This document shows, piece after piece, positions 7,497 through 25,971 of a stretch of 64,000 nucleotides of DNA; position 1 is the first letter of the stretch, and every line of letters starts with the position of its first letter. A program made the translations under genes and the position numbers. The DNA comes from Acidobacteriota bacterium (lineage in GTDB: Bacteria > Acidobacteriota > Thermoanaerobaculia > Multivoradales > Multivoraceae). The stretch is from contig JAJCXN010000048.1 of assembly GCA_029263415.1 (NCBI GenBank), positions 75,169 to 139,168 on the forward strand. Direction: 5' to 3'. A model generated the notes under the pieces. That model saw only the letters and a program-made list of their open reading frames with translations. It had not been told where the DNA came from and made no database searches.

Positions 7497-7886
7497 ATGA
7501 ATCACCCTTGGCATGGGAAATCGCCGACTTCTTCGGCTCGACCCAAACGCAGTCGGTGGGCTGCCGGTCGCTTCCAGTGGTTGGTCTCGATCGCTGTTGC
7601 TTGTCTGCTCTTCAGCGCGGGAGGCCTTCTCAGCGAGACAGTTGGAGAGGACTTTTCTGCGCGTGCACGAGCGCTAAGGCCAGGTGAAGGCCGCTCTGCT
7701 TCAGGGTCTTTTGTCCTGGATCAGCGGAGGTCATCGGCCGCTAGCTCTTCACAGGGCGATGCATTTGTGCTCAACAGGGTGTCTTCGATGGACCCTGAGG
7801 AGCAGCCAGCCGAATCCGACTGTCTGTGTTCCGCTTCACTCTTTCAAGACGGCTTTGAATCAGGAGATATCAGCTCATGGAATTGA
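7497..7886 (+). CDS. small secreted or membrane-anchored protein ending in the C-terminal FESGDISSW motif
   Basis: GAGGA 9 nt upstream of ATG. N-terminal basic region plus hydrophobic helix FQWLVSIAVACLLFSAGGLL. Ser-rich low-complexity middle. The last residues DGFESGDISSWN match the C-terminus of the 45857..47215 protein. Confidence 0.45.
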   Translation: MNHPWHGKSPTSSARPKRSRWAAGRFQWLVSIAVACLLFSAGGLLSETVGEDFSARARALRPGEGRSASGSFVLDQRRSSAASSSQGDAFVLNRVSSMDPEEQPAESDCLCSASLFQDGFESGDISSWN

Positions 7887-9175
7887 TGAACGGCTCAAGA
7901 ACACGTGGCAGGTGCAGCGGACCCGTACTGTTGACCGTATTGTTGGCGGCAGTGATGGTCGCGTGCGGTGCGATGGCTAGTGAGTTCGAAATAGGAACAG
8001 AGTTTACGTATCAGGGCGATCTGCAGTTTGGAGGTGCTCCCGCAGAGGGCTCCTACGACTTCGAGTTTCATCTCTACGATCAAGCCGAGGGCGGCACCTA
8101 TCTTGGTCTCGTCGCTCGTGACCAACTGCCCGTGGTCGGGGGTTCGTTCGCAACAAGGCTCGACTATGGCGTAGACATGTTCTCTCGAAGCGAGGGGTGG
8201 GTGGAGATCCACGTGCGCTCGGTCGGAGTTGGCAACTACACTGAACTTTCGCCACGTCAACGGGTCTCAGGTTCGAGGGGCTCTGCTTGCACAGTCAACG
8301 GAGATCTAGTGGTCGAGGGCAACCTTGGGGTTCAGAGACCGTTACCCAACACCCCGCTCCACGTCGCCGGCGGATCGGACGCCTCCCCAGGTGGTGGCGG
8401 CGTGGTGATGATCGGCGAACCGAACACCCAGAACATTGTCATGGACACCAACGAGATCATGGCCCGCAACAATCTTCAGGCTTCAACGCTCTATCTGAAT
8501 CACGATGGTGGCGACATCAGTTTGGGTGGCTTTCTGGGCGCCGGTGGGGTTACGGTGCCAACCGCACCAATTGACACAGTGGACCAAGAAGCGACTGTGA
8601 ATGGAGGTGGGGCGATCCGAATCCGGGGTGGGCTGCAAAGCCTGCTCATTGATCGAGACGAGATCCAGGTCGGAGGGCTGGGCGCCCCAGGTGTCCTAAA
8701 ACTCAACGAACAAGGAGGCAATGTCGGCATTGCTTCGACCGCTCCGGCGGCACCCTTGCATGTCGGGGTGGGAGGCCCTGACGCGTCGCCAAGCGGCGGT
8801 GGGGTTCTGGTGTTAGGCCCCATCAGCGGCGGCAACCTGGCCTTTGACAACAACGAGATCATGGCCCGTGCCGACGGTGCGCCGAGTGCCCTTTACTTAA
8901 ACCGCGAAGGCGGCAATGTGCACGTCGGCGGTGACCTCCACATCGGCTTGGAGATCGTCAAGAAGAGTGCGTCCGAAATCGTCTATGTGAGCGTCGCCTG
9001 TTCTGCGGGCAAGCAGATACTGGGCGGTGGTTGTTTTAACAACCAGGATTCGAACCTGGAATACTCCTACCCGGCAGGTAACGGTTGGAGCTGCGGTTTC
9101 GAAGATGAGGTACACACGATCACGGTCTGGGCTATCTGCGCCGATGTAGGAGCAGCCCAGTTGATCAACTTGTAA
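7877..9175 (+). CDS. secreted repeat protein with tail-fibre-like repeats (…APLHV-G…GGG-V…NEIMAR…) and a Cys-containing C-terminal knob
   Basis: Signal peptide VLLTVLLAAVMVACGAMA. Two long internal repeats (PLHVAGGSDASPGGGGVVMIGEP…DTNEIMARNN and APLHVGVGGPDASPSGGGVLVLGP…DNNEIMARAD). C-terminal 70 aa contain 4 Cys. Overlaps the preceding ORF by 10 nt. Confidence 0.6.
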   Translation: MELMNGSRTRGRCSGPVLLTVLLAAVMVACGAMASEFEIGTEFTYQGDLQFGGAPAEGSYDFEFHLYDQAEGGTYLGLVARDQLPVVGGSFATRLDYGVDMFSRSEGWVEIHVRSVGVGNYTELSPRQRVSGSRGSACTVNGDLVVEGNLGVQRPLPNTPLHVAGGSDASPGGGGVVMIGEPNTQNIVMDTNEIMARNNLQASTLYLNHDGGDISLGGFLGAGGVTVPTAPIDTVDQEATVNGGGAIRIRGGLQSLLIDRDEIQVGGLGAPGVLKLNEQGGNVGIASTAPAAPLHVGVGGPDASPSGGGVLVLGPISGGNLAFDNNEIMARADGAPSALYLNREGGNVHVGGDLHIGLEIVKKSASEIVYVSVACSAGKQILGGGCFNNQDSNLEYSYPAGNGWSCGFEDEVHTITVWAICADVGAAQLINL

Positions 9176-9256
9176 CCCTAGACTCTCTTTGACCGGCAAA
9201 CTTGAGCCAGCCAGTGCAAGTGCGTTTTCCAAGTCCGGCCGCAGACAGGCCTTAAG

Positions 9257-9349
9257 CCCAGCGGTGTCAACGCGGGCTGCATTGCTGATCGTCAACGGCA
9301 GGCGTAGCTCAAACGAACCGTGATGAACTTGGAAGGACGCTCCGGCACC
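9257..9349. repeat. 93-nt partial duplicate of the 3' part of the redoxin/DsbD-alpha-like gene (second copy at 17053..17144)
   Basis: About 91% nucleotide identity between 9257-9349 and 17053-17144. On the minus strand the intergenic copy still translates to GAGASFQVHHGSFELRLPLTISNAARVDTAG, against GTGESFQVHHGSFELRLPLTINNAARIDTAG in the gene. Confidence 0.75.
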
Positions 9350-9383
9350 TCTGCGAAAGGTGGCAGCCGCTAACCATCAACAG

Positions 9384-11111
9384 TTAGCTCTCGCCGGCAA
9401 GCCCAAGCTCCTTCATGCGACGATACAAAGTCGATCGACCGATCTCGAGCTCGCGAGCGACGGCGGACAGGTTGTTCTCGTTGCTGCGAATGGCAACTTC
9501 GATCTCGAAACGCTCCCAACGATCGACGCGTTGTTTGAGGCTGCCGTTAGCAGGCTCTCGCAGCACTGGGACCGCCTCTCGAATGGCGGGCTGCAAATGC
9601 GAACTTTGCAGCAGTTGATCGCGCTCAACGAACAGTGCCGCCCGCGCCATCTCCCGCTCCAACTGGCGGATATTGCCCGGCCATGCATAGTCCATCAATA
9701 CCTGCATCGCGGCTTTCGAGATGCCCAGCACGCGGTTGCCGGATTTGCTCGCCTCACGCTTTAGAAAGTAAGCAGCAAGGTTGGCGATGTCGGCGCGTCG
9801 CTCGCTCAGCGTCGGCAACTCAACCCGCCAGTCAGCGATGCGGTGGTACAAATCGCGACGAAATTGGTCGGCCGCAAGCAACGCGTCGAGGTCCTGATTG
9901 GTGGCTGCGACCACCCTCACCCGCGCTGGTTTCGGTTCCTGTCCGCCCAGGCGATACACCTCTCCATCTTGGAGGACCCGAAGAATCTTCGCTTGGGTAT
10001 CCAGAGCCATGTCGCCAATCTCGTCGAGGAACAAGGTGCCGCCATCCGCGAGTTCGAACTTGCCTGCACGCGGACTGACCCCGGTGGCAACGCCCTGTTC
10101 GATACCGAAGAGTTCGGACTCCAAGAGATCGCTCGGCAACGCCGCACAATTGAGGGCAACGAACGCTCGCGTGCTGCGCGGTGACGCCCGGTGAATGTAA
10201 CTGGCCAGCAGTTCCTTGCCGGTGCCCGAGCCACCAGTAATCATCACGCTGATTTCGCCTCTTGCCACCCGAGCAGCGTCTTCGTATATCTGCTGCACTC
10301 GAGGCACCACCGTTGCGGGCGAAGGCCCCTTCGGCGGCGCCGCTTCGTTTCGCTCCGCCAGTGGGACCTGTTGGCCGTCAACCAGCGCCATGAACCGACT
10401 GGCGGACTCGACCAGCGTCAGATTGCGCTTCGCCAAAGACGCCGCCAACAACTCCACTTCTACTCGCGCACTGGGCCCTTTGATCTCAACCGGGTAACCA
10501 GACGCTGGCGGGCCCAACTCGCGCTCTGCCTGGTACAAGAGACCGCCCAGCGCGCTCGAGATTCGAACGCTACGACACGGCAGGGTCTCGAACAGGCAGG
10601 CTCCGGCGACTTGGGCAGCTTCGGCCAAAGGAGCGCCGGTTTCCAAGCACGAGAGCCAGGACGGAAGGTGGTCTAGCGGAACCCGCTCCAGTGAACCAGT
10701 GAATGCCGTGGTCGGCGCGTACGCCGTCGCCCGCGACTCCTTTGCAGGTGGCTCAAACCTGACAGCCGGCACGGAGTCATCATCGCCCACCGCCTCGAGT
10801 CGCCCTTCGACGGTGCCGACGGTAACCGCCGCACCGACTTCGACCGTGGTCGGCGCGTCAATCCTCCTACCGCTCACCATGGTGCCGTTGCGCGACCCCA
10901 AGTCCTCTATCTCGACAGACCCAGCTATCTCGGGGGACTCAGCTATCTCGGGGGACTCAGCCAGAACTCGCACTAGCGCGTGACGTCTGGAAACGGTCGG
11001 GTCTGTGAGTAGCAGGTCGCTGGACGCTTCTGAGCCGAGCGTCGATTCCCCGACTTGCAAAGAGAAAGCCTGCAGCGTTCCGCCCGATTCGAACACCAGT
11101 CGAAAACTCAT
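9384..11111 (-). CDS. sigma-54-dependent Fis-family transcriptional activator with N-terminal FHA domain
   Basis: FHA-like N-terminus (FRLVFESGG…TLGS…LLTDPTVSRRHALV). AAA+ sigma-54 activator motifs GGSGTGKE (Walker A) and ESELFG. C-terminal Fis-type HTH (LSAVARELEIGRSTLYRRMKELGL). Start at ATG 11111 overlaps the kinase stop (ATGA). The track start at 11267 would add 52 aa with no similarity to anything. Confidence 0.85.
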   Translation of the reverse strand: MSFRLVFESGGTLQAFSLQVGESTLGSEASSDLLLTDPTVSRRHALVRVLAESPEIAESPEIAGSVEIEDLGSRNGTMVSGRRIDAPTTVEVGAAVTVGTVEGRLEAVGDDDSVPAVRFEPPAKESRATAYAPTTAFTGSLERVPLDHLPSWLSCLETGAPLAEAAQVAGACLFETLPCRSVRISSALGGLLYQAERELGPPASGYPVEIKGPSARVEVELLAASLAKRNLTLVESASRFMALVDGQQVPLAERNEAAPPKGPSPATVVPRVQQIYEDAARVARGEISVMITGGSGTGKELLASYIHRASPRSTRAFVALNCAALPSDLLESELFGIEQGVATGVSPRAGKFELADGGTLFLDEIGDMALDTQAKILRVLQDGEVYRLGGQEPKPARVRVVAATNQDLDALLAADQFRRDLYHRIADWRVELPTLSERRADIANLAAYFLKREASKSGNRVLGISKAAMQVLMDYAWPGNIRQLEREMARAALFVERDQLLQSSHLQPAIREAVPVLREPANGSLKQRVDRWERFEIEVAIRSNENNLSAVARELEIGRSTLYRRMKELGLAGES

Positions 11112-14100
11112 TGCCCATCCCTCGTGATCAAACTCAGATCCAAATGTGGTGACAATTCCTGCAATTGCGCCAGAGACGCCGCCCTTGCTGCGCCCCACTT
11201 GGCTCGGGCGCTCGCACTCGGCGACAATTCGGCAAGCAGACCTTCGAGCGCGACCCGCGCCGCCCATGCTGCCGTCAGCGTAGGCTCGCGCTCGAGGATG
11301 CTACCAACGGTGGCCTCGCCCACAGTGGCGGCGCGCAGAGCCTCCGCAGCATCGACTGTGGCCAAGTACTCGGCGCGCCGACGCAAAGTCCGTGCGAGCG
11401 CCTCGGCATAGTAGGAATAGAACTCATCGGTCCGGCTCGCGCGCGCCTTGGTCAACGCCACTTCGAACGACGCCTTCGCATCGCCTTGCAACCGTGCCAC
11501 CTCACGTGCGCTCAAGAGCGCCATGCGCGCCTCGAGCACGGGAAACTCCGCGGGGTAGGTCTCGCGTAGCGGAGGTAGAAGCTCGGCCGCCTTCCTCAGC
11601 AAGGAGCCCACTGGCTGCCCGCGGTCAAGCCGCGTCCTCGCCTGATCCAGTCGAGAACTTGTCAGATTGAGCTGAGTCGTTGTTCGGTGCGGCGCTTCTT
11701 CGAGAATCTGTTCGAAGCCAGCAGCGGCTTCAGCGAAGCGTGGCTCGGCGTCGCCACCGCTGTCCGCCTCCCACAATGCTCGACTCCAAAGCATTAACGC
11801 AAGGTTGCCTCGCGCACTTCGATCCGCAGGGTCCGCACTCAGCGCGCGGCGGCAAGCGCTCTCGCTCCAGTGGTAGTACTCGGTCGGATCACTGCCGCGC
11901 AGCGACAGGTGGTACCCCCAGTGACTGCCCACGTTGCAGAGTTCGGCGGCGAGCTCTACTTCAACCAAGCCCGCGTTCAAAAGCCCGGTGGCGAAGGCGC
12001 CCTGGGCGCGCTGCCAAGCAGGCACCGGGTCCTCTCCACGGAGGCTAAGGAAGAGTCCATAGCGAGTCAGCGTTTGCCCGAGCTTGAGGTGTGAGTACGG
12101 ATCGCCGGGTCGCAAGTCAACAGCTTCCTCAAGTGCCTTCAAGGACTCCGCATACTGGCGATCCGGAGGGTCCCCTTGATCGCCAAGAAAATTACCCCAC
12201 ACCCAATGCAGACTCCCCAGGTGACTAAGCAATCCCGCATCACGGCGGACTCGCAGTCCCTTTCGTGCCAAGCCTTCCGTTGCCCGCAAGGTTGCTATCG
12301 GATCATCGCCACGGCCAGCCAAGGCGTTGGCCATTCGCCAACCCGCTTCACCAATGAGTGAATAGGCCGGAAGGTAGTCAGGGTTGCTTTCGAGCGCTCG
12401 GCCGCAAGCCGCCTGCGCGCTCGCAAAGGCGTCATCAGGCGGCAGCGCTTGCGCCACTCTAACTTCCATCGCTCGGATGTGGCCTCGACACTCCTGACTG
12501 AGAGCAGCCGGATCGCTACGACCAGCACCCACCGCGATCGCTATCGCCTCCAGGCCCTTTGCCAATGCGATCTGCGCTCCGGCGATGTGTCCCTTCGAAA
12601 GCTCAACCACGACCTCCCGCAGCCGAGCTTCTGCACGCAGCATTTCACCCTCATAAAACAGCGGGTTCGCCGCCGTCGCCGAGCTGCCGCGTTCTGCCGC
12701 CTCGTCGAATCGACCCTCGATCAAGGCCAACAAACCCGCGATGAACTGGGCCTCGTACACCCGCAGTCCCTCGGCAGTTTCCCGCGCTCCCTCGAGAATG
12801 CGAACTGCCCGGTCGGCTGTGCTTAGGCGCGCCTCCGCGACCGCGCTGGTGCGCGAGTCCGCCGACTCAAGACCTTGGGCTCGCTCAATCTCCTGACGAA
12901 ACCGCTCGGCCAGGGTGCGGCCCAATGCCAACTGGACCCCAGGACCATTCGCAGTCGATGATGCGGCCCCCTCTAAGGCTACCTCTGCCTCTTGCCAGTG
13001 ACCCAGCGCCATGAATCCGCGGCCTCGCGCGTAGTCTGCCGCCCCCCGCAGTCGAGCCGACATCGCTTGGGCACGGGCCTCGAGCGCAGCGATCTCCTCG
13101 AGCACGCGCCGCTCCTCTCCTCGAACATCATGGCGCGGGGCAAGATGAGCAAGCCGCAACGACGCTTCGAGACGCTCCACCGTCTGGCCCACTTCCTGGG
13201 CGAACGCTGCTTCGCGCGTTGAGCGGTTCTGGTTCCACACCGACCAAAGACCGAAGCCAAGCGTCACCAGCAGAGCGCTCGCAACCGCAACCGCCGCCAC
13301 TGGATTGCGCTGTGCCCTCCGCCACCAGCGCCGTGCCGCGCTGAGCGGTCGCGCGGTGACCGGCCGGCCGTCGAGCCACCGCTCGAGATCTTCACTGAGG
13401 GCCTGAGCGGTGGCATATCGCCGCTGGGGGACTTTCTCCAAACACTGTTCGGTGATCGCTCGCAGATCCATGGGTAGGTCAGGCGCCACCCGCGAAAGGG
13501 TCGGCGGATCCTCCTGCAACACCTTCACCAGTGAGCCCAGTTGTGAATCTGAAGCGAACGGTTGAACGCCGGCCAGCAGCTCGTACAAGAGAATCCCTAA
13601 GCCGAACACGTCGCTACGTCGATCCAGTCGCCGCAGATCACCTGCCGCCTGCTCCGGCGACATGTACCCTGGCGTGCCCAGGGCTTGGCCAGTCACGGTA
13701 AGGCCACGCGCAGCCGCAACAGTCTCACCTTCTGAAGGCTGCAAGCCGCGAGCGATGCCGAAGTCCAAGACGAAAGGCACTAATGCGCCGTCGTCGTGCT
13801 GCTCCACTAAGATGTTCGACGGTTTAATGTCGCGGTGAATCAGCCCCACCTCATGCGCGGCGTGCAGCGCGTCCGCGATGGTGTGCATGACCTGCACCTT
13901 GAGCTTCAGAGACCGGCCCTCGAGCGCTTCGTCCAGCGGCTTGCCGTCGATCAGTTGCATGCTGATAAACGGCCGCTCGTCCTGGTAGCCGACCTGGTAC
14001 ACCTTGGCTACGTTGGGGTGTTCGACCTTCGCTTGAGCGCGGGCCTCGCGCAGGAAGCGCTCCACCGCCTGCCGGTCATCGGAAAGGAGGTACTTGAGCG

Positions 14101-14188
14101 CAACCTCTCTGCCCAGATCCTCATCGAATGCACGGAGGACACGGCCCATGGCGCCTTCGCCAAGAGGGACTGCGGTGCCTAGCCGCAT
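11108..14188 (-). CDS. Ser/Thr protein kinase with one TM helix and a long TPR-like C-terminal region
   Basis: Hanks kinase motifs: LGEGAMGRV (Gly loop), VALK, HRDIKPSNIL, DFGIA, GTPGYMSPE. TM segment VAAVAVASALLVTLGFGLWSVW. About 650 aa of Ala/Leu/Arg-rich helical repeats follow. Confidence 0.85.
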   Translation of the reverse strand: MRLGTAVPLGEGAMGRVLRAFDEDLGREVALKYLLSDDRQAVERFLREARAQAKVEHPNVAKVYQVGYQDERPFISMQLIDGKPLDEALEGRSLKLKVQVMHTIADALHAAHEVGLIHRDIKPSNILVEQHDDGALVPFVLDFGIARGLQPSEGETVAAARGLTVTGQALGTPGYMSPEQAAGDLRRLDRRSDVFGLGILLYELLAGVQPFASDSQLGSLVKVLQEDPPTLSRVAPDLPMDLRAITEQCLEKVPQRRYATAQALSEDLERWLDGRPVTARPLSAARRWWRRAQRNPVAAVAVASALLVTLGFGLWSVWNQNRSTREAAFAQEVGQTVERLEASLRLAHLAPRHDVRGEERRVLEEIAALEARAQAMSARLRGAADYARGRGFMALGHWQEAEVALEGAASSTANGPGVQLALGRTLAERFRQEIERAQGLESADSRTSAVAEARLSTADRAVRILEGARETAEGLRVYEAQFIAGLLALIEGRFDEAAERGSSATAANPLFYEGEMLRAEARLREVVVELSKGHIAGAQIALAKGLEAIAIAVGAGRSDPAALSQECRGHIRAMEVRVAQALPPDDAFASAQAACGRALESNPDYLPAYSLIGEAGWRMANALAGRGDDPIATLRATEGLARKGLRVRRDAGLLSHLGSLHWVWGNFLGDQGDPPDRQYAESLKALEEAVDLRPGDPYSHLKLGQTLTRYGLFLSLRGEDPVPAWQRAQGAFATGLLNAGLVEVELAAELCNVGSHWGYHLSLRGSDPTEYYHWSESACRRALSADPADRSARGNLALMLWSRALWEADSGGDAEPRFAEAAAGFEQILEEAPHRTTTQLNLTSSRLDQARTRLDRGQPVGSLLRKAAELLPPLRETYPAEFPVLEARMALLSAREVARLQGDAKASFEVALTKARASRTDEFYSYYAEALARTLRRRAEYLATVDAAEALRAATVGEATVGSILEREPTLTAAWAARVALEGLLAELSPSASARAKWGAARAASLAQLQELSPHLDLSLITRDGQ

Positions 14189-14603
14189 GGCCAGCGACCG
14201 CGATCACGGGAATCGATCAAGAGCATTGCGCCAAGTGTTTCAGAACCGCGACACATGATCCGCATCTGAAACGAGAAACTCCGACCCAGGGCTAGAACTC
14301 GCGAGCCGAGCCTCGATCACGCGCCATGAGATCCCTGCCCGTAGGCTGCCCGTTCCACCTGCCTAGATCCCACCGGACCTTGAGAGATGGCGGCGCCTCG
14401 GTGGCGCCGCCCCTATTCATGTCTGAGGCAACCGCTCGGCAGCCCCGCCAACTCGCAGGCCCCCCTTGCGAAGCGCACGTGCGCTGAGTTCGGGCAGCGT
14501 GGCCTTCGATGAAGTCTCAGGGAGGCTACGCACTTCCACCCTAGCGAGGCGTTTCGAACACGGAAAGGTCGTGGCACTGGATCCTCACGAATGGGTACTA
14601 CTC

Positions 14604-14635
14604 GGGCGAGGGCGTTGCAAAGCACTCCCTCGCCC
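14604..14635 (-). terminator. GC-rich stem-loop (GGGCGAGGG … CCCTCGCCC) about 27 nt downstream of the lipoprotein gene stop; weak terminator candidate
   Basis: 9-bp perfect stem with a 14-nt loop seen in the sequence. No U-tract follows, so intrinsic terminator function is uncertain. Confidence 0.2.
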
Positions 14636-14661
14636 GCTATCTAGTCGATGTAGCCCCGATA

Positions 14662-15090
14662 TCAGCTTGAGCAGATCTCGCTCCCGCCGACGCTGAACCC
14701 AGTCACGTCCCAGCGCACGTTACCGGTTTTCTTGACGTTGACGGCCAATGCTACGGCCTCCTCGTTCACCGTTAGGGTTGCCTGTACTGTCGCGGTCTTG
14801 CCCTCACCTTGAGCGAGCTCTCCCATCGCGTAGGCGGAGGGTTTTCCTCGCACGCCGGACTTCGCCTTTTGCTCCAGTGCGCCCATGTCACCGCCGCACG
14901 CCGATTGTGCCTCCGGAGTTAGGCCGCCAAACGCCAGATCCCACATGCCCATTTGCATCGACTGAGTAAAGGCATCGGCCGCGAACTTGGCTTGCTTCGT
15001 CTCCGTTTCGTCGAGACCTCCTCCGCCGCCGCACGCTGCTACACCCACGACTACACCGAGTATCAACAACATCATTCGTTGGGTTCTCAT
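14662..15090 (-). CDS. small lipoprotein, hypothetical
   Basis: GGAGAAG 8 nt upstream of ATG. Signal peptide with lipobox LLILGVVVGVAAC followed by a Gly-rich linker. Confidence 0.6.
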   Translation of the reverse strand: MRTQRMMLLILGVVVGVAACGGGGGLDETETKQAKFAADAFTQSMQMGMWDLAFGGLTPEAQSACGGDMGALEQKAKSGVRGKPSAYAMGELAQGEGKTATVQATLTVNEEAVALAVNVKKTGNVRWDVTGFSVGGSEICSS

Positions 15091-15563
15091 CTTTCAACTT
15101 CTCCTGCGCCGAGAACGGCTACGAAGGAACTGCGGGAGTGCAATCCAAAATCGATCCTGGCCGTCCTATTGAATGGTGACGGCACACTCCTTCGCAATGT
15201 CGGTGCCAAGATGCGATCAGACTAAGCCTCACTAGACAGAGCGGCGATTGAGCGATGCCGGCTCGAGCTTCAGGCAGTCCCGACTCGTGTCACTGGCGGG
15301 ACGCCTGTTCCGTTTTCGGAACAGCTCGACGCATCGTCAACCAATCACAGGCGCCCAACAAAAAGCCTCGGACGACCCAACTGCGCCGGGCACTGGACGG
15401 AAACTCGACCGTCCGGAGACTTGGGATTGCCTCAGCGAGCGCCCCTTCCGGCCGCAACCTCGCCCCAACGCTCGAAGGTTGCGCGGCAGTCACGGCAGCG
15501 TTAGGCACGCTCCTTGCTCTTGATGTCTCCCGGCACGGGTTCTTACCCTTACAGGAGATCGAG

Positions 15564-16073
15564 ATGCGACGGATCGAATTCAAGGCTCCTCACTTTCAGC
15601 AAGGATCCCAACAACGATGCCTCGCGCTGCTCACTCTCATGATCGCGATCGCAGCCGGTGGGTGCGAGCGGGACGACCAGCTCGACCCAGCCCAGGAAGC
15701 CGAACGGGCCGCGATGTTCTATGTGGCGCTGATGGAGCACACGGAAGAACTGCTGGAGCACAACGCGGCCGACCTGCCTGAACAGATTGAGGCCGCGCGT
15801 CAGCGATCTCAGGAGCTGCTAGAGCAGGTTTCAGTTGCTTGCAAGAACCTCACAAACGAGCAGTACGGCCAGTACAGCGGGCGCCAATTCCAGCTCGAAG
15901 GCACGGTGAAATATCAAAACGCGGAGCTCGTGCAAGACCGACTGATGGCCATCTCCGGTGCCAGGCCTGAGCTCGGTCCAGTGGCGCAGCGTTTTCGCAG
16001 CATCCGCGCCTACGGAGACGTCGTCGAACTCCGGAGTCAGTTTCCCGAAGACGCCGCCCGTTTGGGCCTCTGA
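15564..16073 (+). CDS. lipoprotein, hypothetical
   Basis: Internal start MRRIEFKAPHF… with GGAG 7 nt upstream. Signal plus lipobox LLTLMIAIAAGGC. The upstream 103 codons of track ORF 15255..16073 have no signal and low complexity. Confidence 0.55.
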   Translation: MRRIEFKAPHFQQGSQQRCLALLTLMIAIAAGGCERDDQLDPAQEAERAAMFYVALMEHTEELLEHNAADLPEQIEAARQRSQELLEQVSVACKNLTNEQYGQYSGRQFQLEGTVKYQNAELVQDRLMAISGARPELGPVAQRFRSIRAYGDVVELRSQFPEDAARLGL

Positions 16074-16121
16074 TCGCATTGTTATCGCTATCCGAACAAC
16101 ACACACCTTGGAGGCCACCAA

Positions 16122-16451
16122 ATGAATAGACGTCAGCGAAATCCGTATGCACAGCACCGTTCGGCCGCGAAAATGTTGATGACGGCCAGCTGCATTAGCC
16201 TGGCCCTCTTGGGCGCATGCTCTTCGTCCCTGCCCTCCGACCCAACGGAAGCCGGCAAGCAAATCGCCGAACAACGTTGCGACTGCACCAAAGCCGAAGC
16301 GCCCTACGTCGCGAGTTGCGTCAACACAGCCTCGAGAACTCTGCAAACCGGCACCGAAAAGTACGACGCGAAGGGCCGCATAGCAATGGTCAAATCATAC
16401 GAATCAGAGTTCGAGCGGTGTCCATGGGACAAGCCCGAGTTCTATGAATAG
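16122..16451 (+). CDS. small Cys-containing lipoprotein, hypothetical
   Basis: GGAGG 7 nt upstream of ATG. Lipobox ISLALLGACSS. 5 Cys in the mature part. Confidence 0.55.
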   Translation: MNRRQRNPYAQHRSAAKMLMTASCISLALLGACSSSLPSDPTEAGKQIAEQRCDCTKAEAPYVASCVNTASRTLQTGTEKYDAKGRIAMVKSYESEFERCPWDKPEFYE

Positions 16452-16806
16452 GAAACTCGAGTTGCGAACTACCAGAGACTTCTTCGTGCCGTTACAGCCG
16501 ATCCAGTCGAGCAAGCCGAGCAAGCCGAGCAAGCTTGTCGAGAGCCTCAACGCTACGGGACGGCTTTGATCCGGACAGCTTTGATCCGGACTGCGCTTAC
16601 CGTAGCCGCCGTCCCATCGACCAACCTCGAACAACTCTCACTCCGAAGAGGAAAGCCAATGCGCTCCACACTCGTCGCTGCGGTTCGCTCTTTTCCTCAT
16701 CGCATTGCTGCAAACTTGCCTGCCAGCTACTGCAGTTGTCAGAACATCACTCTTCCGATTGACACATTTATCGGTACAGCCCTTGCCCGTCTGGCGGTGG
16801 CACAGA

Positions 16807-18033
16807 CTAGCCAGTAGGCTCGCCGTTTGGAGGTGAAGATGTGGTTTTTCCAGTCGGACCGCGCAGCCGCCGCTCAGACATTCTTTGAAAGTGTCTCCCG
16901 GCGTTGGGTTCCAGGGCGAGGCCCTGGTTGCCCCGCAGAGCAACTGGGGGTGATTCTGCAACCGGCAGTGTCCGCTCGAAGCGCTGGCCCATCGGCAGAT
17001 CGCACATTTCGTCATCGCAGGATTGCCAACGGATCTCACCAGAAATCGTCACCCCAGCGGTGTCAATCCGGGCTGCATTGTTGATCGTCAATGGCAGGCG
17101 CAGCTCGAACGAACCGTGATGAACTTGGAAGGACTCTCCGGTACCGGCAAGCGTATGAAGCTCGCTCGGCGGTCGCACCAGCGGGCGCTCTACGACGCTC
17201 TCATTCTCAGCGAGCACCACGTCCACCGCGATGGTCCCTTGTGGTGCAGGTTGCGCGTAAACGTGCCGGCCTGCAGGAACGCGGAATTGCACAACAAGAT
17301 CCCTCTGCACCGTAGCGGCGAGTGAGTCGCCGTCGAGGACGATGCTCACCTCTACCGCTTCGGGTGCTGCTGCGTCGACTCTTGCTTCAAGCATGGGCTC
17401 ACCTAGGACTGCACGTAGTAACTGCTCGGGACCCGGGCGGACGGCAAGGTTGTTTTCGAAGAACTTGTGGGTGATCGCGCCGTCCGCGCCAACCACGTAG
17501 CTGCCGGGGTAGGGAATGCCAAACCAGGGATGATCGTCCGGATCGATCAGCGTGTTTAGGATGCCGAACGATCGGATGACCGCTGAGTCTGGATCCGAGA
17601 GCAAGGGATAGCTGATGCCGTGCGCTTCGCCGAAGTCACTCAGCGCATCCGCCTCGTCATAGCTCAGCGCGTACAGCGCGACGCCCGCGGCATCGAAGTC
17701 CTTCAGCCCTTTTTGCAGCTCGACCAGCAGCGAACGGCAAGGAGGTCACCAGACCGCGGAACGGTAGAAGACAAACACCGCTGGTCTTCCTGCGCGATCG
17801 GCATGCAGATCGAAGGGCCTCGCGTCCGACGTGCTGCACTGCACGTCTGGCATGGGTTCGCCAACCTCGGGCCCAGTAGGGAAGGAACCCCGGGGATCGC
17901 TTCTCGGTCCGTTGCCAGGCTGAAAGGGCCCGATGAAGCCGTCGTGGTCCTGCCAGCCTCTGTCGGTCTGAATCGCGCGTGTCTCAAGCTCCAACTTCAC
18001 TACGTGTACTACCTCTCGTAATGGCGTGGTCAT
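16807..18033 (-). CDS. candidate selenoprotein: AhpC/TSA (Bcp/redoxin)-fold thiol peroxidase or oxidoreductase with a U-x-x-C motif, fused to a DsbD-alpha-like C-terminal domain; in-frame TGA at 17746..17748
   Basis: Track ORFs 17746..18033 and 16807..17604 share one frame (17746-16807=939). Exactly 47 sense codons and a single TGA lie between them. Read-through gives …DARPFDLHADRAGRPAVFVFYRSAVW-[TGA]-PPCRSLLVELQKGLKDFDAAGVALYALSYDEADALSDFGEAHGISYPLLSDPDSAVIRSFGIL…. The TGA replaces the first Cys of the W-C-x-x-C motif. The C-terminal 200 aa (…PAGRHVYAQP… CDDEMCDLP) resemble the DsbD N-terminal alpha domain. N-terminal start is uncertain (18033 ATG, or 17853 ATG at MPDVQCS). Confidence 0.6.
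17715..17731 (-). promoter_or_regulatory. bacterial SECIS-like hairpin 15 nt downstream of the in-frame UGA (mRNA 5'-GCUGCU-GGUCG-AGCUGC-3')
   Basis: Minus-strand RNA: a 6-position stem (G-C, C-G, U·U mismatch, G-C, C-G, U-A) closes a GGUCG loop. The loop GGUC falls at +24..+27 from the U of UGA; in E. coli fdhF, G23/U24 lie in GGUC at +22..+25. The U·U mismatch parallels the bulged U17 of fdhF. Confidence 0.4.
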
Positions 18034-18393: not shown

Positions 18394-19548
18394 CTACTCG
18401 GGGATCGGACCTAGTTCTGGCAAGAACGTATGCAGCACCGCGACTTTCAACCGATGCCCACTGACTCGATAGCGATTTAGGAAAACAATCACGGAGATCT
18501 CTCGTTCGGGAAAGCGAGAGAAGCTTGTGACGAAGCCTGCAACCTGACCACTGTGACTCTGCGAGCGCAGCCCTTGGTAGTCGCGGACAACCCACCCAAA
18601 TCCGTAACCAACGGCCTCACCATCCGGCAGCAGCGTCGAAGTCCACATCGCCTTCTTGGATTCGGCACTCAGTAAAACGTCACCGCCCAGTGCGTGATCC
18701 CACTTCGCCAAGTCTCGGGCTGAGGAGAGTAGCCCGCCAGCTCCTAGCGTCGACGAGGTTTCGGTGGGCATCCGGTTGATCAGCTCGCCGGCCTTGTTCA
18801 CCCAATAGCCCGATGCGCGATTAGGGATGATCGCTTCTGGGTCCGCCAAGCGGGTCTGGGTCATTGCAAGGGGCCCAAAGATACGAGACTGCAAAACCTT
18901 CCCGAGGGGACGGCCCTCGATGCGCTCGACAAGCATGCTCAACAAGAAGTAGCCGGTGTTGCTGTAGTACCAACCGGTCCCGGGCGCAAAATCCATCGGC
19001 CGTGAATGCGCTATCCGAATGACTTCTTCGGGTGTCATCCGAAAGCGATAGACGTCATAGCTTCTGATTTCCTCGTAGTCGGGAATGCCTGATGTGTGGG
19101 TCAATAGTTGGCGCACCGTGACGCCAAGCCACTCGCTGGGCAACGTCGGGAGATAGGTGTGGATAGCATCGTCCAGGTTGAGCTGACCGTCCTGAACGAG
19201 CAACATCGCCGCTGCTGAAACAAACTGCTTGCTGACTGAGCCAATCTCAAAAACGGCGTCTTCGGAAACCGGAACCGAAAGTTCAACGTTGGCCATGCCA
19301 TACGTCCTGAGATGCACCATCTCCCCTTTCGACGCAACAGCCACCAAAGCTCCGGGAATGTTGTTCTCCTTGAGATGAGCATAAATGCGGGCGTCTAACT
19401 TCGCGAATGCCTCAGCACTAGGTTGGGCGATCTGTGCAGACAGCGAGAGGCTGCAGAACAAAGTCACACTCGCTAGCAACACGCCGACTCGAACGATCGC
19501 AGAGAAGCCTGATGGGGGCGAGTCAAAGAGTCGTTTACGGGCAGCCAT
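18394..19548 (-). CDS. serine hydrolase of the beta-lactamase / penicillin-binding (class C-like) family, secreted
   Basis: S-x-x-K motif SVSKQF, YSN-like motif YYSNTGY. Signal peptide VGVLLASVTLFCSLSLSA. GGAGA 8 nt upstream of ATG. Confidence 0.85.
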   Translation of the reverse strand: MAARKRLFDSPPSGFSAIVRVGVLLASVTLFCSLSLSAQIAQPSAEAFAKLDARIYAHLKENNIPGALVAVASKGEMVHLRTYGMANVELSVPVSEDAVFEIGSVSKQFVSAAAMLLVQDGQLNLDDAIHTYLPTLPSEWLGVTVRQLLTHTSGIPDYEEIRSYDVYRFRMTPEEVIRIAHSRPMDFAPGTGWYYSNTGYFLLSMLVERIEGRPLGKVLQSRIFGPLAMTQTRLADPEAIIPNRASGYWVNKAGELINRMPTETSSTLGAGGLLSSARDLAKWDHALGGDVLLSAESKKAMWTSTLLPDGEAVGYGFGWVVRDYQGLRSQSHSGQVAGFVTSFSRFPEREISVIVFLNRYRVSGHRLKVAVLHTFLPELGPIPE

Positions 19549-21218: not shown

Positions 21219-21662
21219 ATGTCCAACCATAGAAGCGTCTTGGTTCTGCTCGGCCTACTCGTCATTTCTACCCTGGCCTGCGCGGTTGAGGAGTCACCAC
21301 CTGTTGAAGAGTCACCATCTGATGAGGCGGGCAACCTCGAACAGATGGGCTTCGCTGTCTCCGCATTGTCCAGGGGAAAGGGAGTGCCGCCCGAGGCCAT
21401 GAACTCTCTCAGAGAAATCCAAGAACTCCTGGCCAAGGACAGCGCAGCAGGCAAGCTGCTTCAGTTGGAAACGATACGTCTCGGCATTGAAGGGGAACGT
21501 AGGGTTTGCGTCGTTTACAAGGACAAGTCCGTCGGCGCGGCCGCCAAAAAGAAGATCGAACGCATCGTTCAGGGAGTCGACCTAATGCAGTTCGAACAAA
21601 GCGGATGTACTACTGACGAAGCAGATCCGCTTCGATCAGGCAATGGAGGACAACCAAAATGA
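21219..21662 (+). CDS. small lipoprotein translationally coupled to the downstream astacin gene
   Basis: Signal plus lipobox VLVLLGLLVISTLAC. An 18-nt repeat encodes VEESPPVEESPS. The stop overlaps the astacin ATG (ATGA at 21659-21662). The track ORF begins at GTG 21168. Confidence 0.5.
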   Translation: MSNHRSVLVLLGLLVISTLACAVEESPPVEESPSDEAGNLEQMGFAVSALSRGKGVPPEAMNSLREIQELLAKDSAAGKLLQLETIRLGIEGERRVCVVYKDKSVGAAAKKKIERIVQGVDLMQFEQSGCTTDEADPLRSGNGGQPK

Positions 21663-24922: not shown

Positions 24923-25008
24923 CCACGTCCGCACGAGCCCCCAAGTTGGTTTAGGACTTCTCACAGGGCGGCGTCTCAACGGTTTACGGAGCCGCCAGCA
25001 AGACAGGC

Positions 25009-25893
25009 ATGCCCCACTCTCTCCCATTCACAGTGAAGCTTCTTTCGATAGCTCGGCGCGAGCTGACTGTGATGGTGCCGGTGTTATGCCTCGCGTGCAG
25101 CCCGGCTAGTTCCTCGCAACTCAACGAGCCGATCGAGCAGGCTTCGACTGCAGACCAGGCATGCCTTCGCCTGGAACCGTCAAGAGCGGACCCGGTCCTG
25201 GGAGAACCCGTACTGCTCATCGTAGGGCTTGAGAACTGCTCGTCCAATTCGTTGGTGGTGCGCAAGCTTCTCGCGCCCGAAAAAGGCCTCCTCCAGATCA
25301 AGGCCACGGCACCGGACGGCGAGCAGCTTATCTACCGCCCTCCCCTCTATAGAGACGGTCGAGGCGCACGATCAGTCCAACTTGCACCTGGAGAGACGCA
25401 CATTGATGGTGTCGCGATCTACTACGGCAGCGAGGGTTGGTTTCTGAATCGCTCCGGGAGGTGGCGTTTCACCGCGCAGTACTCCAGCGAGTGGGGCCTT
25501 CTGTCATCCGAGCCGGTCGAACTCTGGGTGAAGGAACCGACGAGTCCAGAGCAGCTACTGACCGCTCGCATCTTCATGAAGGATGAAGTCGCTCGCTTCT
25601 TCTACATGGGCGGCGACGATCAGAAAGCGGCGCAGGCAATTCAGGACTCGCTGCCAGAAAGCACTTGGAGAAAGTTCGCCGACCTAGCCGTTCAGTCGAA
25701 CAACCCCGACGCAACGCAGTTCGACCTGGAGATCCTCGCTTCGTTGCCTGATGCCGCCATCGCGGCGGCTGTCGCTGGCGATCTGAGAGATCGCACAGTT
25801 CCGCACTCAATCAAGCAGCAATTGCTGGACAAGAGTTCGAAGGGATCGCTGGTTGCAAAGTGGATCGAACAACGGTTGCCTCCTGAGTTCTAG
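25009..25893 (+). CDS. secreted hypothetical protein
   Basis: N-terminal hydrophobic signal …LTVMVPVLCLACSPASS. Same strand and tight spacing with the flanking secreted hydrolase genes. No recognisable motif. Confidence 0.5.
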   Translation: MPHSLPFTVKLLSIARRELTVMVPVLCLACSPASSSQLNEPIEQASTADQACLRLEPSRADPVLGEPVLLIVGLENCSSNSLVVRKLLAPEKGLLQIKATAPDGEQLIYRPPLYRDGRGARSVQLAPGETHIDGVAIYYGSEGWFLNRSGRWRFTAQYSSEWGLLSSEPVELWVKEPTSPEQLLTARIFMKDEVARFFYMGGDDQKAAQAIQDSLPESTWRKFADLAVQSNNPDATQFDLEILASLPDAAIAAAVAGDLRDRTVPHSIKQQLLDKSSKGSLVAKWIEQRLPPEF

Positions 25894-25971
25894 AAACGCT
25901 CCTAAGCAACACTAGCCACAAGTCGTCGGCCGAGCTACCTATCTCACCCACCGAAAGCCGGGAGGCCCACC

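What the first reader, a model, noticed from the sequence alone, without database searches (positions are those of the whole stretch)
9384..14188. Ser/Thr kinase-TPR protein translationally coupled to an FHA, sigma-54-dependent activator
The Hanks kinase gene (11108..14188) ends with TGA overlapping the ATG (ATGA at 11108-11111) of a regulator that combines an N-terminal FHA phosphothreonine-binding domain, a sigma-54 AAA+ activation domain and a Fis HTH. This is the PpkA/Fha- or Myxococcus-type logic: a kinase phosphorylates a partner protein, an FHA domain reads the phospho-Thr, and transcription follows. Here it is wired directly into an enhancer-binding protein. The regulator also carries an 18-nt tandem repeat (AESPEIAESPEIAGSVEIE) in the FHA-AAA linker. 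The target sigma-54 promoter is not evident in this window.
Basis: partly seen in the sequence, partly recalled or inferred. Interest (0 to 1): 0.55.

Follow-up and report, generated by a model that had tools for sequence, protein, structure and literature searches.

The report
Receptor kinase paired with FHA-type sigma-54 activator
A membrane Ser/Thr kinase gene overlaps the start of a sigma-54-type transcription activator from a distinct, uncharacterised family in which two "essential" signature residues are replaced, and its likely DNA site and target promoters lie about 1 kb away in the same window.

Summary
The two genes and the ATGA overlap are real. The kinase (11108-14188, minus strand) is a Hanks kinase with one membrane helix and a ~700-residue helical C-terminal part. 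The regulator (9384-11111, minus strand, 575 aa) reads FHA, family-specific middle domain, sigma-54 AAA+ domain, Fis HTH. Homologues fix its start at the overlapping ATG.

- The 18-nt repeat lies inside the FHA domain, not in the linker. It adds 12 residues to a hairpin and is unique among 118 relatives.
- GAFTGA is replaced by GVATGV; A-T-G-V is invariant in 118/118 relatives.
- The phosphate-binding Arg of the FHA "GR" motif is Ser in 105/118.
- Candidate targets are present. The two best -24/-12 matches in 64 kb sit divergently at 15193-15208 and 15503-15518, before small lipoprotein genes. A perfect palindrome, CTGTTCCGTTTTCGGAACAG, lies 120 bp upstream of the first.

The palindrome-plus-promoter arrangement recurs in two relatives' loci, with a weaker form in a third, and in 0 of 159 control loci.

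A homologous kinase lies directly upstream in three other loci, once with a TGATG overlap, and nearby in three more. Several relatives lack it.

Verdict: a plausible kinase-controlled sigma-54 module; a new variant of a known kind. Phosphothreonine reading by this FHA domain is unproven.

The parts
11108..14188 (-). Receptor-type Hanks Ser/Thr kinase gene, 1026 aa
   Evidence: ORF. Pkinase 8-266, E 1.1e-39. GxGxxG, VALK, HRDIKPSN, DFG and SPE motifs are read directly from the translation. A 100%-identical protein lies on a 400,760-bp public contig.
13391..14167 (-). Kinase catalytic domain (residues 8-266), predicted cytoplasmic
   Evidence: Pfam. Best NCBIfam similarity is to PknB-type kinases, below the curated cut-off.
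13235..13303 (-). Single hydrophobic membrane helix (about residues 296-318), preceded by the basic stretch RRWWRRAQR
   Evidence: Kyte-Doolittle scan: the only 19-residue windows above 1.7.
11111..13234 (-). C-terminal part of ~700 aa, predicted extracytoplasmic, with weak TPR-like hits (putative sensor)
   Evidence: TPR_11/TPR_19 hits below the Pfam cut-off. Homologous over 30-50% identity to the C-terminal parts of kinases P0122-P0139.
11108..11111 (-). ATGA: the kinase stop TGA overlaps the regulator start ATG, with a GAGG Shine-Dalgarno-like element 10-13 nt upstream
   Evidence: Sequence. Start confirmed by homologue N-termini. An analogous TGATG overlap occurs in L173.
9384..11111 (-). 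FHA / middle domain / AAA+(GVATGV) / HTH enhancer-binding-type regulator, 575 aa
   Evidence: Pfam. 120 full-length homologues listed at 45-62% identity. AlphaFold2 model, mean pLDDT 91.9.
10758..11111 (-). FHA domain (residues 1-118), non-canonical: Ser27 stands in place of the 'GR' arginine
   Evidence: Pfam FHA E 3.9e-13. Foldseek matches to CT664, FhaA and GarA FHA structures, target TM-scores 0.85-0.92. The GarA/OdhI 'AGRH' aligns to the query 'LGSE'. Column counts.
10907..10961 (-). 18-nt tandem repeat, 3.1 copies, encoding AESPEI-AESPEI-AGSVEI. It is a 12-residue insertion in an FHA beta-hairpin.
   Evidence: TRF score 82. 25 residues lie between H44 and D70, against 13 in 112/118 relatives. 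Low pLDDT at residues 51-61.
10707..10709 (-). Codon of Thr135: invariant (118/118) at the end of a disordered, otherwise variable linker. Candidate phospho-acceptor (inference).
   Evidence: Column counts. pLDDT below 50 for residues 129-136.
10371..10700 (-). Family-specific alpha/beta middle domain (residues 138-247; two helices, four strands, two helices)
   Evidence: AlphaFold2 secondary structure. No Pfam or PDB sequence match. The profile finds only 98 clusters among 1.84 billion representatives, mostly at about residues 120-260 of 500-620-aa proteins, otherwise in shorter products.
9567..10304 (-). Sigma-54-interaction AAA+ domain and lid (residues 270-515); Walker A, Walker B and Arg residues intact
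   Evidence: Pfam. Foldseek to NtrC1, ZraR, FlrC and FleQ AAA+ domains, target TM-score about 0.9, 40-46% identity. Invariant columns.
10077..10094 (-). GVATGV in place of the GAFTGA loop motif
   Evidence: A-T-G-V is invariant in 118/118 relatives.
9405..9515 (-). Fis-type HTH (residues 533-569)
   Evidence: HTH_8, E 5.5e-09. STLYRR is conserved across the family.
15305..15324 (.). Perfect 20-bp palindrome CTGTTCCGTTTTCGGAACAG: candidate binding site (UAS) of the regulator
   Evidence: Unique in the window. Near-identical palindromes occur in L085 and L173 at the same distance from -24/-12 elements.
15193..15208 (-). Candidate sigma-54 promoter A: TGGCACCGACATTGCG. It lies 120 bp from the palindrome centre and about 100 nt upstream of the lipoprotein gene ATG.
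15503..15518 (+). Candidate sigma-54 promoter B: AGGCACGCTCCTTGCT, divergent from A, about 45 nt upstream of the ATG at 15564
   Evidence: Weaker support: it lies 202 bp from the palindrome and no relative shows this second promoter with a palindrome.
14662..15090 (-). 142-aa predicted lipoprotein gene (signal peptide plus Cys), the likely direct target. The kinase gene follows 473 nt downstream.
   Evidence: ORF. GGAGAA RBS. No Pfam hit.
15564..16073 (+). 169-aa predicted lipoprotein gene, a possible second target, followed by a 109-aa lipoprotein ORF at 16122-16451
   Evidence: No Pfam hit.
14603..14636 (-). GC-rich hairpin just after the lipoprotein stop codon, without a U tract. It may partly insulate the kinase operon.
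   Evidence: For the 111-nt stretch 14560-14670, MFE is -40.7 kcal/mol, z = -2.0.

Best explanation
The locus is a two-gene signalling operon. The first gene encodes a membrane-spanning Hanks-type Ser/Thr kinase with a large C-terminal sensor part. The second encodes an enhancer-binding-type activator. The two are translationally coupled.

The activator belongs to a distinct lineage of about 100 clusters at 50% identity, named mostly from Acidobacteriota MAGs. Its layout is: non-canonical FHA domain, disordered linker with an invariant Thr, family-specific alpha/beta domain, AAA+ domain with GVATGV instead of GAFTGA, Fis HTH.

Proposed mechanism:
1. The regulator binds as an oligomer to the palindrome CTGTkCC-N6-GGmACAG at 15305-15324.
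2. From about 120 bp upstream it uses ATP hydrolysis to open sigma-54 holoenzyme at the -24/-12 promoter at 15193-15208, and perhaps also at the divergent one at 15503-15518.
3. This turns on small lipoprotein genes. By read-through it may also turn on its own kinase-regulator operon.
4. The kinase gates this step by threonine phosphorylation. Either the FHA domain docks on the autophosphorylated kinase, or the kinase phosphorylates linker Thr135 and the FHA domain captures it in cis or in trans. Either event would release the N-terminal module's hold on the AAA+ ring.

Shown: genes, domains, start codon, overlap, family-wide motif changes, recurrent kinase linkage, and the recurrent palindrome-plus-promoter architecture.

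Inferred: DNA binding at the palindrome, sigma-54 dependence, the direction of control, and any phosphothreonine binding.
For: Genes and coupling:
- ORFs, domains and overlap.
- Start codon fixed by 118 homologues.

Active enzymes:
- All kinase catalytic motifs are present.
- Walker A Lys, Walker B Asp-Glu and the conserved Arg residues are invariant.
- The AAA+ fold matches sigma-54 activators at target TM-score about 0.9.

Kinase linkage:
- A homologous ~1000-1040-aa kinase lies directly upstream on the same strand in L090 (40-nt gap), L091 (67-nt gap) and L173 (TGATG overlap).
- It lies 2.5 kb upstream in L175 and 3.4 kb downstream in L083. A different kinase is divergent in L085.
- 15 contig lengths are shared between the regulator and kinase hit lists.
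- Among generic activator loci, 5 of 82 have a kinase within 10 kb.

Sigma-54 targets:
- The only two matches with at most 1 mismatch in 64 kb share one intergenic region, divergent, each before a gene with a good RBS.
- A perfect palindrome lies between them.
- The same palindrome sits 118-134 bp from a -24/-12 element in L085 and L173, and more weakly in L082.
- Palindrome (at least 13 of 14 positions) plus promoter occurs in 3 of 10 family loci and 0 of 159 control loci covering 1.78 Mb.

Precedent for GVATGV:
- DVUA0100 of D. vulgaris carries GVATGV, is 49% identical in the AAA+ domain, and sits in type III secretion operons with predicted divergent sigma-54 promoters (PMC4641369).

Phospho-switch hints:
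- Thr135 is invariant in a disordered linker, with Leu/Val most common at +3 (61 of 118).
- The FHA fold is close to GarA, FhaA, EmbR and DgcB.
Against: - The Phe of GAFTGA is replaced by Ala, invariantly. From published mutagenesis of PspF and NtrC, recalled from my own knowledge, that Phe is needed for sigma-54 contact.
- The FHA 'GR' arginine, the main phosphate ligand in canonical FHA domains, is Ser in 105/118 relatives.
- No rpoN gene is present in the window, and the rest of the genome could not be read.
- The overall count of -24/-12 matches in the window equals chance. Only their placement is unusual.
- The palindrome was not found in L083, L084, L086, L090, L091 or L175.
- The kinase is absent near several family members, and the two closest kinase homologues lack a regulator.
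- Some loci inspected were chosen because a kinase was expected there, so the 7/10 figure is biased. Unbiased picks give 2/5.
- Thr135 sits at the N-cap of the first helix of the middle domain, which could explain its invariance without phosphorylation.
Confidence: 0.55

Rival explanations
1. The regulator is a sigma-54-independent transcription factor. With GVATGV it can no longer engage sigma-54. It would act as a repressor or sigma-70-type activator that uses its AAA+ domain only for oligomerisation, as described for TyrR or Rhodobacter NtrC. The -24/-12-like elements would then be chance.
For: - Phe to Ala at the key loop position is invariant in 118/118 relatives.
- Among 80 generic activators, GAFTGA-like motifs dominate and GVATGV appears only twice.
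- The overall number of -24/-12 matches in the window is at chance level.
- rpoN was not seen in the window.
Against: - The loop is under strict purifying selection, and the ATPase residues are intact.
- The -24/-12 elements sit at a fixed 118-134 bp from a shared palindrome in three to four family loci, and in none of 159 control loci.
- DVUA0100, which also has GVATGV, lies within operons with predicted sigma-54 promoters (PMC4641369).
Confidence: 0.15
2. The FHA domain is not a phosphothreonine reader. It serves as a phospho-independent protein-protein or oligomerisation module, as in type III secretion ring proteins of the YscD type. The kinase would control the regulator by direct phosphorylation elsewhere, or only by stoichiometric binding. 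In relatives without a kinase, another input would act through the middle domain.
For: - The 'GR' arginine is Ser in 105/118 relatives and Arg in only 1.
- The query also hits Yop-YscD_cpl, E 3.8e-10.
- The best PDB match, the CT664 FHA domain, likewise has Gly-Ser.
- Many family members have no kinase nearby.
- The conserved family-specific middle domain could be the real sensor.
Against: - Ser41, His44, Asn75 and Gly76 are invariant. Arg42 is present in 114/118 and Thr77 in 116/118. The equivalents of Ser41, Arg42 and Asn75 contribute phosphate contacts in FhaA-type domains (my own knowledge).
- The Pfam FHA score is higher than the YscD score.
- Recurrent linkage is to one kinase family.
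- Thr135 is invariant, with a hydrophobic +3 residue in about half of the relatives.
Confidence: 0.2
3. The adjacency has no regulatory meaning. Two unrelated genes happen to be packed with overlapping stop and start codons, in a genome rich in Hanks kinases.
For: - A second Hanks kinase lies in the same window at 48963-51887, so kinases are abundant here.
- The closest kinase homologues have other neighbours.
Against: - The same kinase family sits directly upstream of the same regulator family in three further, divergent loci, one of them also overlapping.
- 15 contigs are shared between the two hit lists.
- An FHA domain next to a Ser/Thr kinase is a recognised functional pairing, for example PknH-EmbR (my own knowledge).
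Confidence: 0.05

Closest known systems
FHA-domain enhancer-binding proteins of Myxococcus xanthus (Jelsbak, Givskov and Kaiser 2005, PNAS 102:3010; cited in PMC12288465 and PMC4320627; the paper itself could not be read)
   Same: Both combine an N-terminal FHA domain with a sigma-54 AAA+ domain and an HTH. Both carry the proposed link from Ser/Thr kinases to sigma-54 transcription.
   Different: - This family has GVATGV instead of GAFTGA.
- It has Ser instead of the FHA 'GR' Arg.
- It has an extra family-specific middle domain.
- Source names point mostly to Acidobacteriota.
- A canonical FHA-activator found here for contrast (L147) has GR and GAFSGA.
- Whether the M. xanthus proteins share these changes was not tested.
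DVUA0100, type III secretion regulator on plasmid pDV1 of Nitratidesulfovibrio (Desulfovibrio) vulgaris Hildenborough (PMC4641369)
   Same: - Both have GVATGV in the L1 loop.
- They are 49% identical across the AAA+ domain and both are 575 aa.
- Divergent -24/-12 elements lie next to the regulator's own operon.
- A Ser/Thr-phospho enzyme is a neighbour: there a SpoIIE/PP2C phosphatase.
   Different: - DVUA0100 has no FHA domain and no middle domain.
- Its targets are type III secretion genes, not lipoprotein genes.
- Its regulon is itself only a computational prediction.
PknH-EmbR of Mycobacterium tuberculosis
   Same: A membrane Hanks kinase gene lies next to a transcription activator that carries an FHA domain (arrangement recalled from my own knowledge). 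The EmbR FHA domain is a structural match.
   Different: - EmbR is a SARP-type, sigma-70-class activator with a C-terminal, canonical FHA domain.
- Here the output is an AAA+ sigma-54-type motor, and the FHA domain is N-terminal and lacks the Arg.
GarA/OdhI and Bdellovibrio DgcB (FHA domains that capture a phosphothreonine in their own disordered tail)
   Same: An FHA domain is flanked by a disordered segment with a conserved Thr. The folds match: GarA target TM-scores 0.75-0.91, and the DgcB FHA domain at 0.85.
   Different: - The conserved Thr lies C-terminal of the FHA domain, not N-terminal.
- The output is an AAA+ activator.
- Phosphorylation of Thr135 is untested.
PpkA-Fha1 of the Pseudomonas aeruginosa H1 type VI secretion system
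   Same: A Hanks kinase and an FHA protein are encoded together.
   Different: That system acts post-translationally on a secretion apparatus. It does not work through a DNA-binding AAA+ activator.

Membership tests
Bacterial enhancer-binding proteins (sigma-54 activators, PF00158) | AAA+ domain with Walker A GxxGxGKE and Walker B DE | tested here: met
   GGSGTGKE and FLDEIGDM are present. K299, D363 and E364 are invariant in 118/118 relatives. Pfam E 9.8e-59.
Bacterial enhancer-binding proteins (sigma-54 activators, PF00158) | GAFTGA loop motif that contacts sigma-54 | tested here: not met
   The motif is GVATGV. A-T-G-V is invariant in 118/118 relatives, so Phe is replaced by Ala. Thr and the second Gly are retained.
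Bacterial enhancer-binding proteins (sigma-54 activators, PF00158) | AAA+ fold of solved sigma-54 activators | tested here: met
   Foldseek to NtrC1, ZraR, FlrC, LuxO and FleQ: target TM-score 0.85-0.92, rmsd about 2 Å, 38-46% identity.
Bacterial enhancer-binding proteins (sigma-54 activators, PF00158) | C-terminal DNA-binding HTH, with an upstream activating sequence about 80-150 bp from a -24/-12 promoter | tested here: met
   HTH_8, E 5.5e-09. A palindrome lies 120 bp from TGGCAC-N5-TTGCG, and this recurs in relatives. Binding itself is untested.
Bacterial enhancer-binding proteins (sigma-54 activators, PF00158) | Activation of sigma-54 holoenzyme; rpoN present in the genome | not testable with these tools
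   No rpoN signature was found in the 64-kb window. The rest of the 400-kb contig and genome could not be reached.
FHA domain (PF00498), phosphothreonine-binding | FHA beta-sandwich fold | tested here: met
   Pfam E 3.9e-13. Foldseek to CT664, FhaA and GarA: target TM-scores 0.85-0.92.
FHA domain (PF00498), phosphothreonine-binding | Conserved Gly-Arg, whose Arg binds the phosphate | tested here: not met
   Gly26 is invariant. The next residue is Ser in 105, Ala in 10, Thr in 2 and Arg in 1 of 118 relatives. It aligns to the Arg of GarA/OdhI 'AGRH'.
FHA domain (PF00498), phosphothreonine-binding | Conserved Ser-x-x-His and Asn-Gly | tested here: met
   S41, H44, N75 and G76 are invariant in 118/118. 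R42 is present in 114/118.
FHA domain (PF00498), phosphothreonine-binding | Binding of a phosphothreonine peptide | not testable with these tools
   This needs biochemistry.
Hanks-type (eukaryote-like) Ser/Thr protein kinase | Gly-rich loop, VAIK Lys, HRD catalytic loop, DFG, and APE/SPE | tested here: met
   GEGAMGRV, VALK, HRDIKPSN, DFG and MSPE are read from the translation. Pkinase E 1.1e-39.
   Only one or two TPR hits, all below the Pfam gathering score: TPR_11 at 24.8 bits against a 26.8 cut-off, and TPR_19 at 24.3 against 25. Homologues carry more TPR family hits.
GVATGV subgroup of activators (DVUA0100-like) | GVATGV loop and higher AAA+ identity than to generic activators | tested here: met
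   49% identity over 229 residues to DVUA0100. GVATGV is also found in a GAF-type activator of a Myxococcota MAG (L010). It appears in only 2 of 80 generic activators.
Conserved kinase-regulator gene pair | The same two families are neighbours in relatives | tested here: met
   Directly adjacent in L090, L091 and L173, and nearby in L175, L083 and L085. Not universal: L082, L084 and L086 show no kinase, and L088 and L174 show no regulator.

The most novel reading that the evidence does not exclude
This is a self-contained lineage of sigma-54 activators in which both textbook contact residues have been rewritten: the Phe of GAFTGA and the phosphate-binding Arg of the FHA domain. Even so, it still drives -24/-12 promoters from a palindromic site at a fixed distance of about 120 bp, under direct control of a dedicated receptor Ser/Thr kinase.

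If true, three things follow:
- The GAFTGA Phe is not universally required to remodel sigma-54 holoenzyme, or this lineage contacts it differently.
- The FHA domain reads its phospho-ligand, possibly its own linker Thr135, by a non-canonical pocket.
- Hanks kinases would replace histidine kinases as the input to sigma-54 transcription in Acidobacteriota-type genomes.
Probability: 0.35. Interest if true: 0.65.

Novelty: new variant of a known kind. Interest (0 to 1): 0.5.

Why it matters
- FHA-bearing sigma-54 activators have been known since 2005, but as far as I know their kinase partners, DNA sites and targets are mostly undefined.
- This locus offers a ready-made cognate pair, with overlapping genes. 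It also offers a predicted operator (CTGTkCC-N6-GGmACAG), a predicted target promoter at a fixed spacing, and a candidate phospho-site (Thr135). The whole signal path can therefore be tested with a handful of constructs.
- An entire family keeps an intact ATPase and an invariant GVATGV loop. This bears on a long-standing assumption about how these motors grip sigma-54.
- If the kinase-to-activator link holds, it documents a route from Ser/Thr phosphorylation to sigma-54 promoters outside Myxococcus.

Tried and rejected
- Collection scans gave no family members. The genome-contig scan used generic AAA+ patterns and returned ordinary activators. The metagenome-contig scan with the N-terminal profile returned ordinary FHA proteins. 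I used both sets only as controls.
- The 52-codon N-terminal extension (start at 11267) is rejected by the homologue N-termini.
- The middle domain was searched against Pfam and PDB sequences and matched nothing. Foldseek on the N-terminal model was dominated by FHA hits, so the middle domain's fold class remains unassigned.
- The neighbouring proteins in the window (432 aa, three small lipoproteins, 687 aa, 381 aa) were compared by tblastn with the loci of relatives. There was no homology, so there is no conserved regulon by gene content.
- No Rfam family matches 9000-16500.
- The sigma-70 promoter scan found nothing convincing before the kinase gene.
- The palindrome was searched for elsewhere in the window. 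Only chance-level matches with 3 mismatches turned up.
- L175 has divergent -24/-12-like sites but no such palindrome.
- rpoN box and further activator motifs in the window: none.
- The Jelsbak 2005 paper is not held in the library.
- My raw figure of 7/10 family loci with a kinase is inflated, because some loci were picked through the kinase hit list.

Full report
**1. What is in the sequence**

On the minus strand, ORF 11108..14188 encodes 1026 aa. The longest ORF at 9384..11267 encodes 627 aa. The kinase stop TGA and an in-frame ATG of the second ORF form ATGA at 11108-11111, with a GAGG element 10-13 nt upstream.

Pfam finds these domains:
- Kinase: Pkinase at residues 8-266 (E 1.1e-39), plus only sub-threshold TPR hits.
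- Regulator, read from the ATG at 11111 (575 aa): FHA 24-99 (E 3.9e-13), Sigma54_activat 270-429 (E 9.8e-59), AAA_lid_14, and HTH_8 533-569.

NCBIfam gives only sub-threshold similarity to named activators and to PknB-type kinases, so neither protein is an equivalog of a named one.

The kinase has all catalytic motifs. It has one hydrophobic helix at about residues 296-318, preceded by a basic stretch. This fits a cytoplasmic kinase domain and a ~700-residue outside part.

**2. Start codon and the repeat**

There are 120 listed full-length homologues of the regulator at 45-62% identity. Where a source names them, they come from Acidobacteriota, Thermoanaerobaculia, Vicinamibacteria and 'Deltaproteobacteria' MAGs. 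All full-length ones begin M-x-[LF]-R-L at the position of the ATG at 11111. A public gene call on an independent contig gives the same 575-aa product. The 52 extra codons are therefore not used, and the overlap stands.

The 18-nt repeat is real: 10907-10961, 3.1 copies. However, it encodes residues 51-68, inside the FHA domain.
- In 112 of 118 relatives, 13 residues separate His44 from Asp70. The query has 25, the longest in the set. Two other relatives have shorter insertions at the same place, and L173 has one too.
- Alignments to solved FHA domains show the same 11-12-residue gap.
- The model has low confidence there.
- The hairpin lies at the end of the fold opposite the peptide-binding loops (my own knowledge of FHA structures). 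The insertion is therefore probably tolerated rather than functional.

**3. Family-wide peculiarities**

In the 118-sequence alignment:
- The GAFTGA position reads x-V-A-T-G-V, with A-T-G-V invariant. Walker A Lys, Walker B Asp-Glu and the conserved arginines are also invariant.
- In the FHA domain, Gly26, Ser41, His44, Asn75 and Gly76 are invariant. The residue after Gly26 is Ser in 105, Ala in 10, Thr in 2 and Arg in 1. In canonical domains this residue is the phosphate-binding Arg.
- GarA/OdhI 'AGRH' aligns to the query's 'LGSE'. The best PDB match, the CT664 FHA domain, also has Gly-Ser.

A canonical FHA-activator met by chance (L147) has both GR and GAFSGA. The two changes therefore mark this lineage rather than FHA-activators in general.

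Thr135 is invariant (118/118) at the end of an otherwise variable, disordered linker, with Leu or Val most common at +3.

Residues 138-247 form a confident alpha/beta domain. It has no Pfam or PDB sequence match. Its profile finds only 98 clusters among 1.84 billion representatives. Most matches lie at about residues 120-260 of proteins of 500-620 aa, and the rest are shorter products that look like fragments. It is thus essentially exclusive to this architecture.

**4. Is GVATGV compatible with sigma-54?**

- The AAA+ fold matches solved sigma-54 activators at target TM-score about 0.9.
- GVATGV has one literature precedent. DVUA0100 of D. vulgaris is predicted to activate divergent sigma-54 promoters of type III secretion operons (PMC4641369).
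- I located that gene on pDV1. It is 49% identical to the query across the AAA+ domain, has no FHA domain, and is followed closely by a Cache-HAMP-SpoIIE phosphatase gene.
- A GAF-type activator in a Myxococcota MAG also has GVATGV.
- Among 80 generic activators, GAFTGA-like motifs dominate and GVATGV occurs twice.

**5. Targets in the window**

The total number of TGGCAC-N5-TTGCW matches is at chance level. However, the only two with at most 1 mismatch lie in the same 473-bp intergenic region, about 1 kb upstream of the kinase gene, and they are divergent.
- Site A is TGGCACCGACATTGCG (15208 to 15193, minus strand). It lies about 100 nt before a 142-aa lipoprotein gene with a GGAGAA RBS.
- Site B is AGGCACGCTCCTTGCT (15503-15518, plus strand). 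It lies about 45 nt before a 169-aa lipoprotein ORF with an AGGAG RBS.
- Between them lies a perfect palindrome, CTGTTCCGTTTTCGGAACAG (15305-15324), unique in the window. It is 120 bp from the -12 element of site A.

**6. The same architecture in relatives**

- L085 (regulator P0053, 49% identical): CTGTTCCGGAAATGGAACAG lies 134 bp from TGGCACCAACCGTGCT, which precedes a Kelch-repeat gene by about 50 nt.
- L173: CTGTGCCGCCGGCGGCACGG, as read on the promoter strand, plus a second adjacent site, lie 120 and 99 bp from CGGCACCGGCGTTGCG. That element precedes a beta-helix-like gene divergent from the kinase-regulator pair.
- L082 (the closest relative): two imperfect sites lie 118 bp from GGGCACGGTTCTTGAT, which stands before the regulator gene itself.

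With at least 13 of 14 palindrome positions plus a -24/-12-like element 60-170 bp away, 3 of 10 family loci qualify. None of 159 control loci (1.78 Mb) does. The strict palindrome with up to 2 mismatches has no hit in the controls.

The pDV1 type III secretion intergenic region also shows two divergent -24/-12-like sites.

This is the main positive evidence that the family acts at sigma-54-type promoters, and it identifies its likely operator. The palindrome was not found in six other family loci. The neighbouring genes are not homologous between loci.

**7. Is the kinase link conserved?**

- Directly upstream on the same strand, a ~1000-1040-aa kinase homologous along its C-terminal part occurs in L090 (40-nt gap), L091 (67-nt gap) and L173 (TGATG overlap).
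- It lies 2.5 kb upstream in L175 and 3.4 kb downstream in L083.
- A different Pkinase-TPR gene is divergent in L085.
- Fifteen contig lengths are shared by the two hit lists.
- No kinase is seen in L082 (a contig of only 4.7 kb), L084 or L086.
- The two closest kinase homologues have no regulator beside them.
- Generic activators have a kinase within 10 kb in 5 of 82 loci.
- Several family loci were chosen through the kinase list. Unbiased picks give 2 of 5. The link is frequent and specific in kind, but not obligatory.

**8. Mechanism**

The best-supported reading is a receptor kinase gating an AAA+ activator. The activator binds the palindrome and activates the adjacent sigma-54 promoter or promoters.

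A GC-rich hairpin without a U tract follows the lipoprotein gene. Read-through into the kinase-regulator operon, giving positive autoregulation as predicted for DVUA0100, is therefore possible but open.

How the phospho-signal is read is the weakest step. The FHA domain may dock on the phosphorylated kinase, as in PknH-EmbR. Alternatively it may capture phospho-Thr135 of its own linker, in a GarA- or DgcB-like switch. The missing Arg means that neither can be assumed.

**9. Verdict**

This is a new variant of a known kind, the FHA-bearing sigma-54 activators. It comes with a concrete, testable operator, promoter and kinase set. Interest is moderate.

Noticed in passing
window 48963-51887 (+): A second Hanks-type kinase gene (974 aa). 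Its Pkinase domain is followed by PD40/beta-propeller repeats. It is unrelated in its C-terminal part to the kinase studied here.
   Followed up: partly
window 7877-9175 (+): A 432-aa predicted secreted protein, convergent with the regulator gene. It has two long internal repeats (…GGxDASPxGGGV…NEIMAR…LYLN..GG…) and a Cys-rich C-terminus. It has no Pfam hit and no homologue in the relatives' loci.
   Followed up: partly
L172 (pDV1) 23574-27840 (-): The GVATGV activator DVUA0100 is followed by a 124-aa ORF and then a Cache-HAMP-SpoIIE (PP2C-type) phosphatase. GVATGV-type activators without an FHA domain may therefore also be under Ser/Thr-phospho control.
   Followed up: partly
L083 5554-8359, L091 1573-4455, L173 6967-7761, L085 1617-5435: Genes next to family regulators and their kinases, often behind -24/-12-like elements, repeatedly encode large secreted repeat proteins: Beta_helix, Peptidase_S74 and Kelch. 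They are not homologous to the lipoprotein genes in the window.
   Followed up: partly
L173 6967-7998 (-): The public gene call for the beta-helix-like gene seems too long at its 5' end. A GAGGAG RBS and a GTG near 7761 follow the -24/-12-like element, and the called start would bury the promoter and the palindromes inside the gene.
   Followed up: no
L175 8795-8830: A short tandem repeat (GTGTTCGA, about 4 copies) lies in the leader region of a small minus-strand gene. That gene sits in a divergent intergenic region with two -24/-12-like sites next to another family regulator.
   Followed up: no
window 14603-14636: A GC-rich 13-bp-stem hairpin lies directly after the 142-aa lipoprotein gene and has no U tract. 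The 111-nt stretch around it folds somewhat better than shuffles (z = -2.0).
   Followed up: partly
window 93-2114, 18394-19548, 21659-22990, 36571-39891, 42662-45424: The wider context consists of envelope or secreted-protein genes: a VWA protein, a beta-lactamase-fold protein, an M10 metalloprotease, a 1106-aa Sortilin/BNR protein and a MacB/FtsX-type permease. No rpoN gene and no second activator lie in the window.
   Followed up: partly
window 16807-17604 (-): An ORF with a DsbD_N domain and a truncated AhpC/TSA match at its N-terminus. This may be a mis-started or fused thiol-disulfide protein gene.
   Followed up: no
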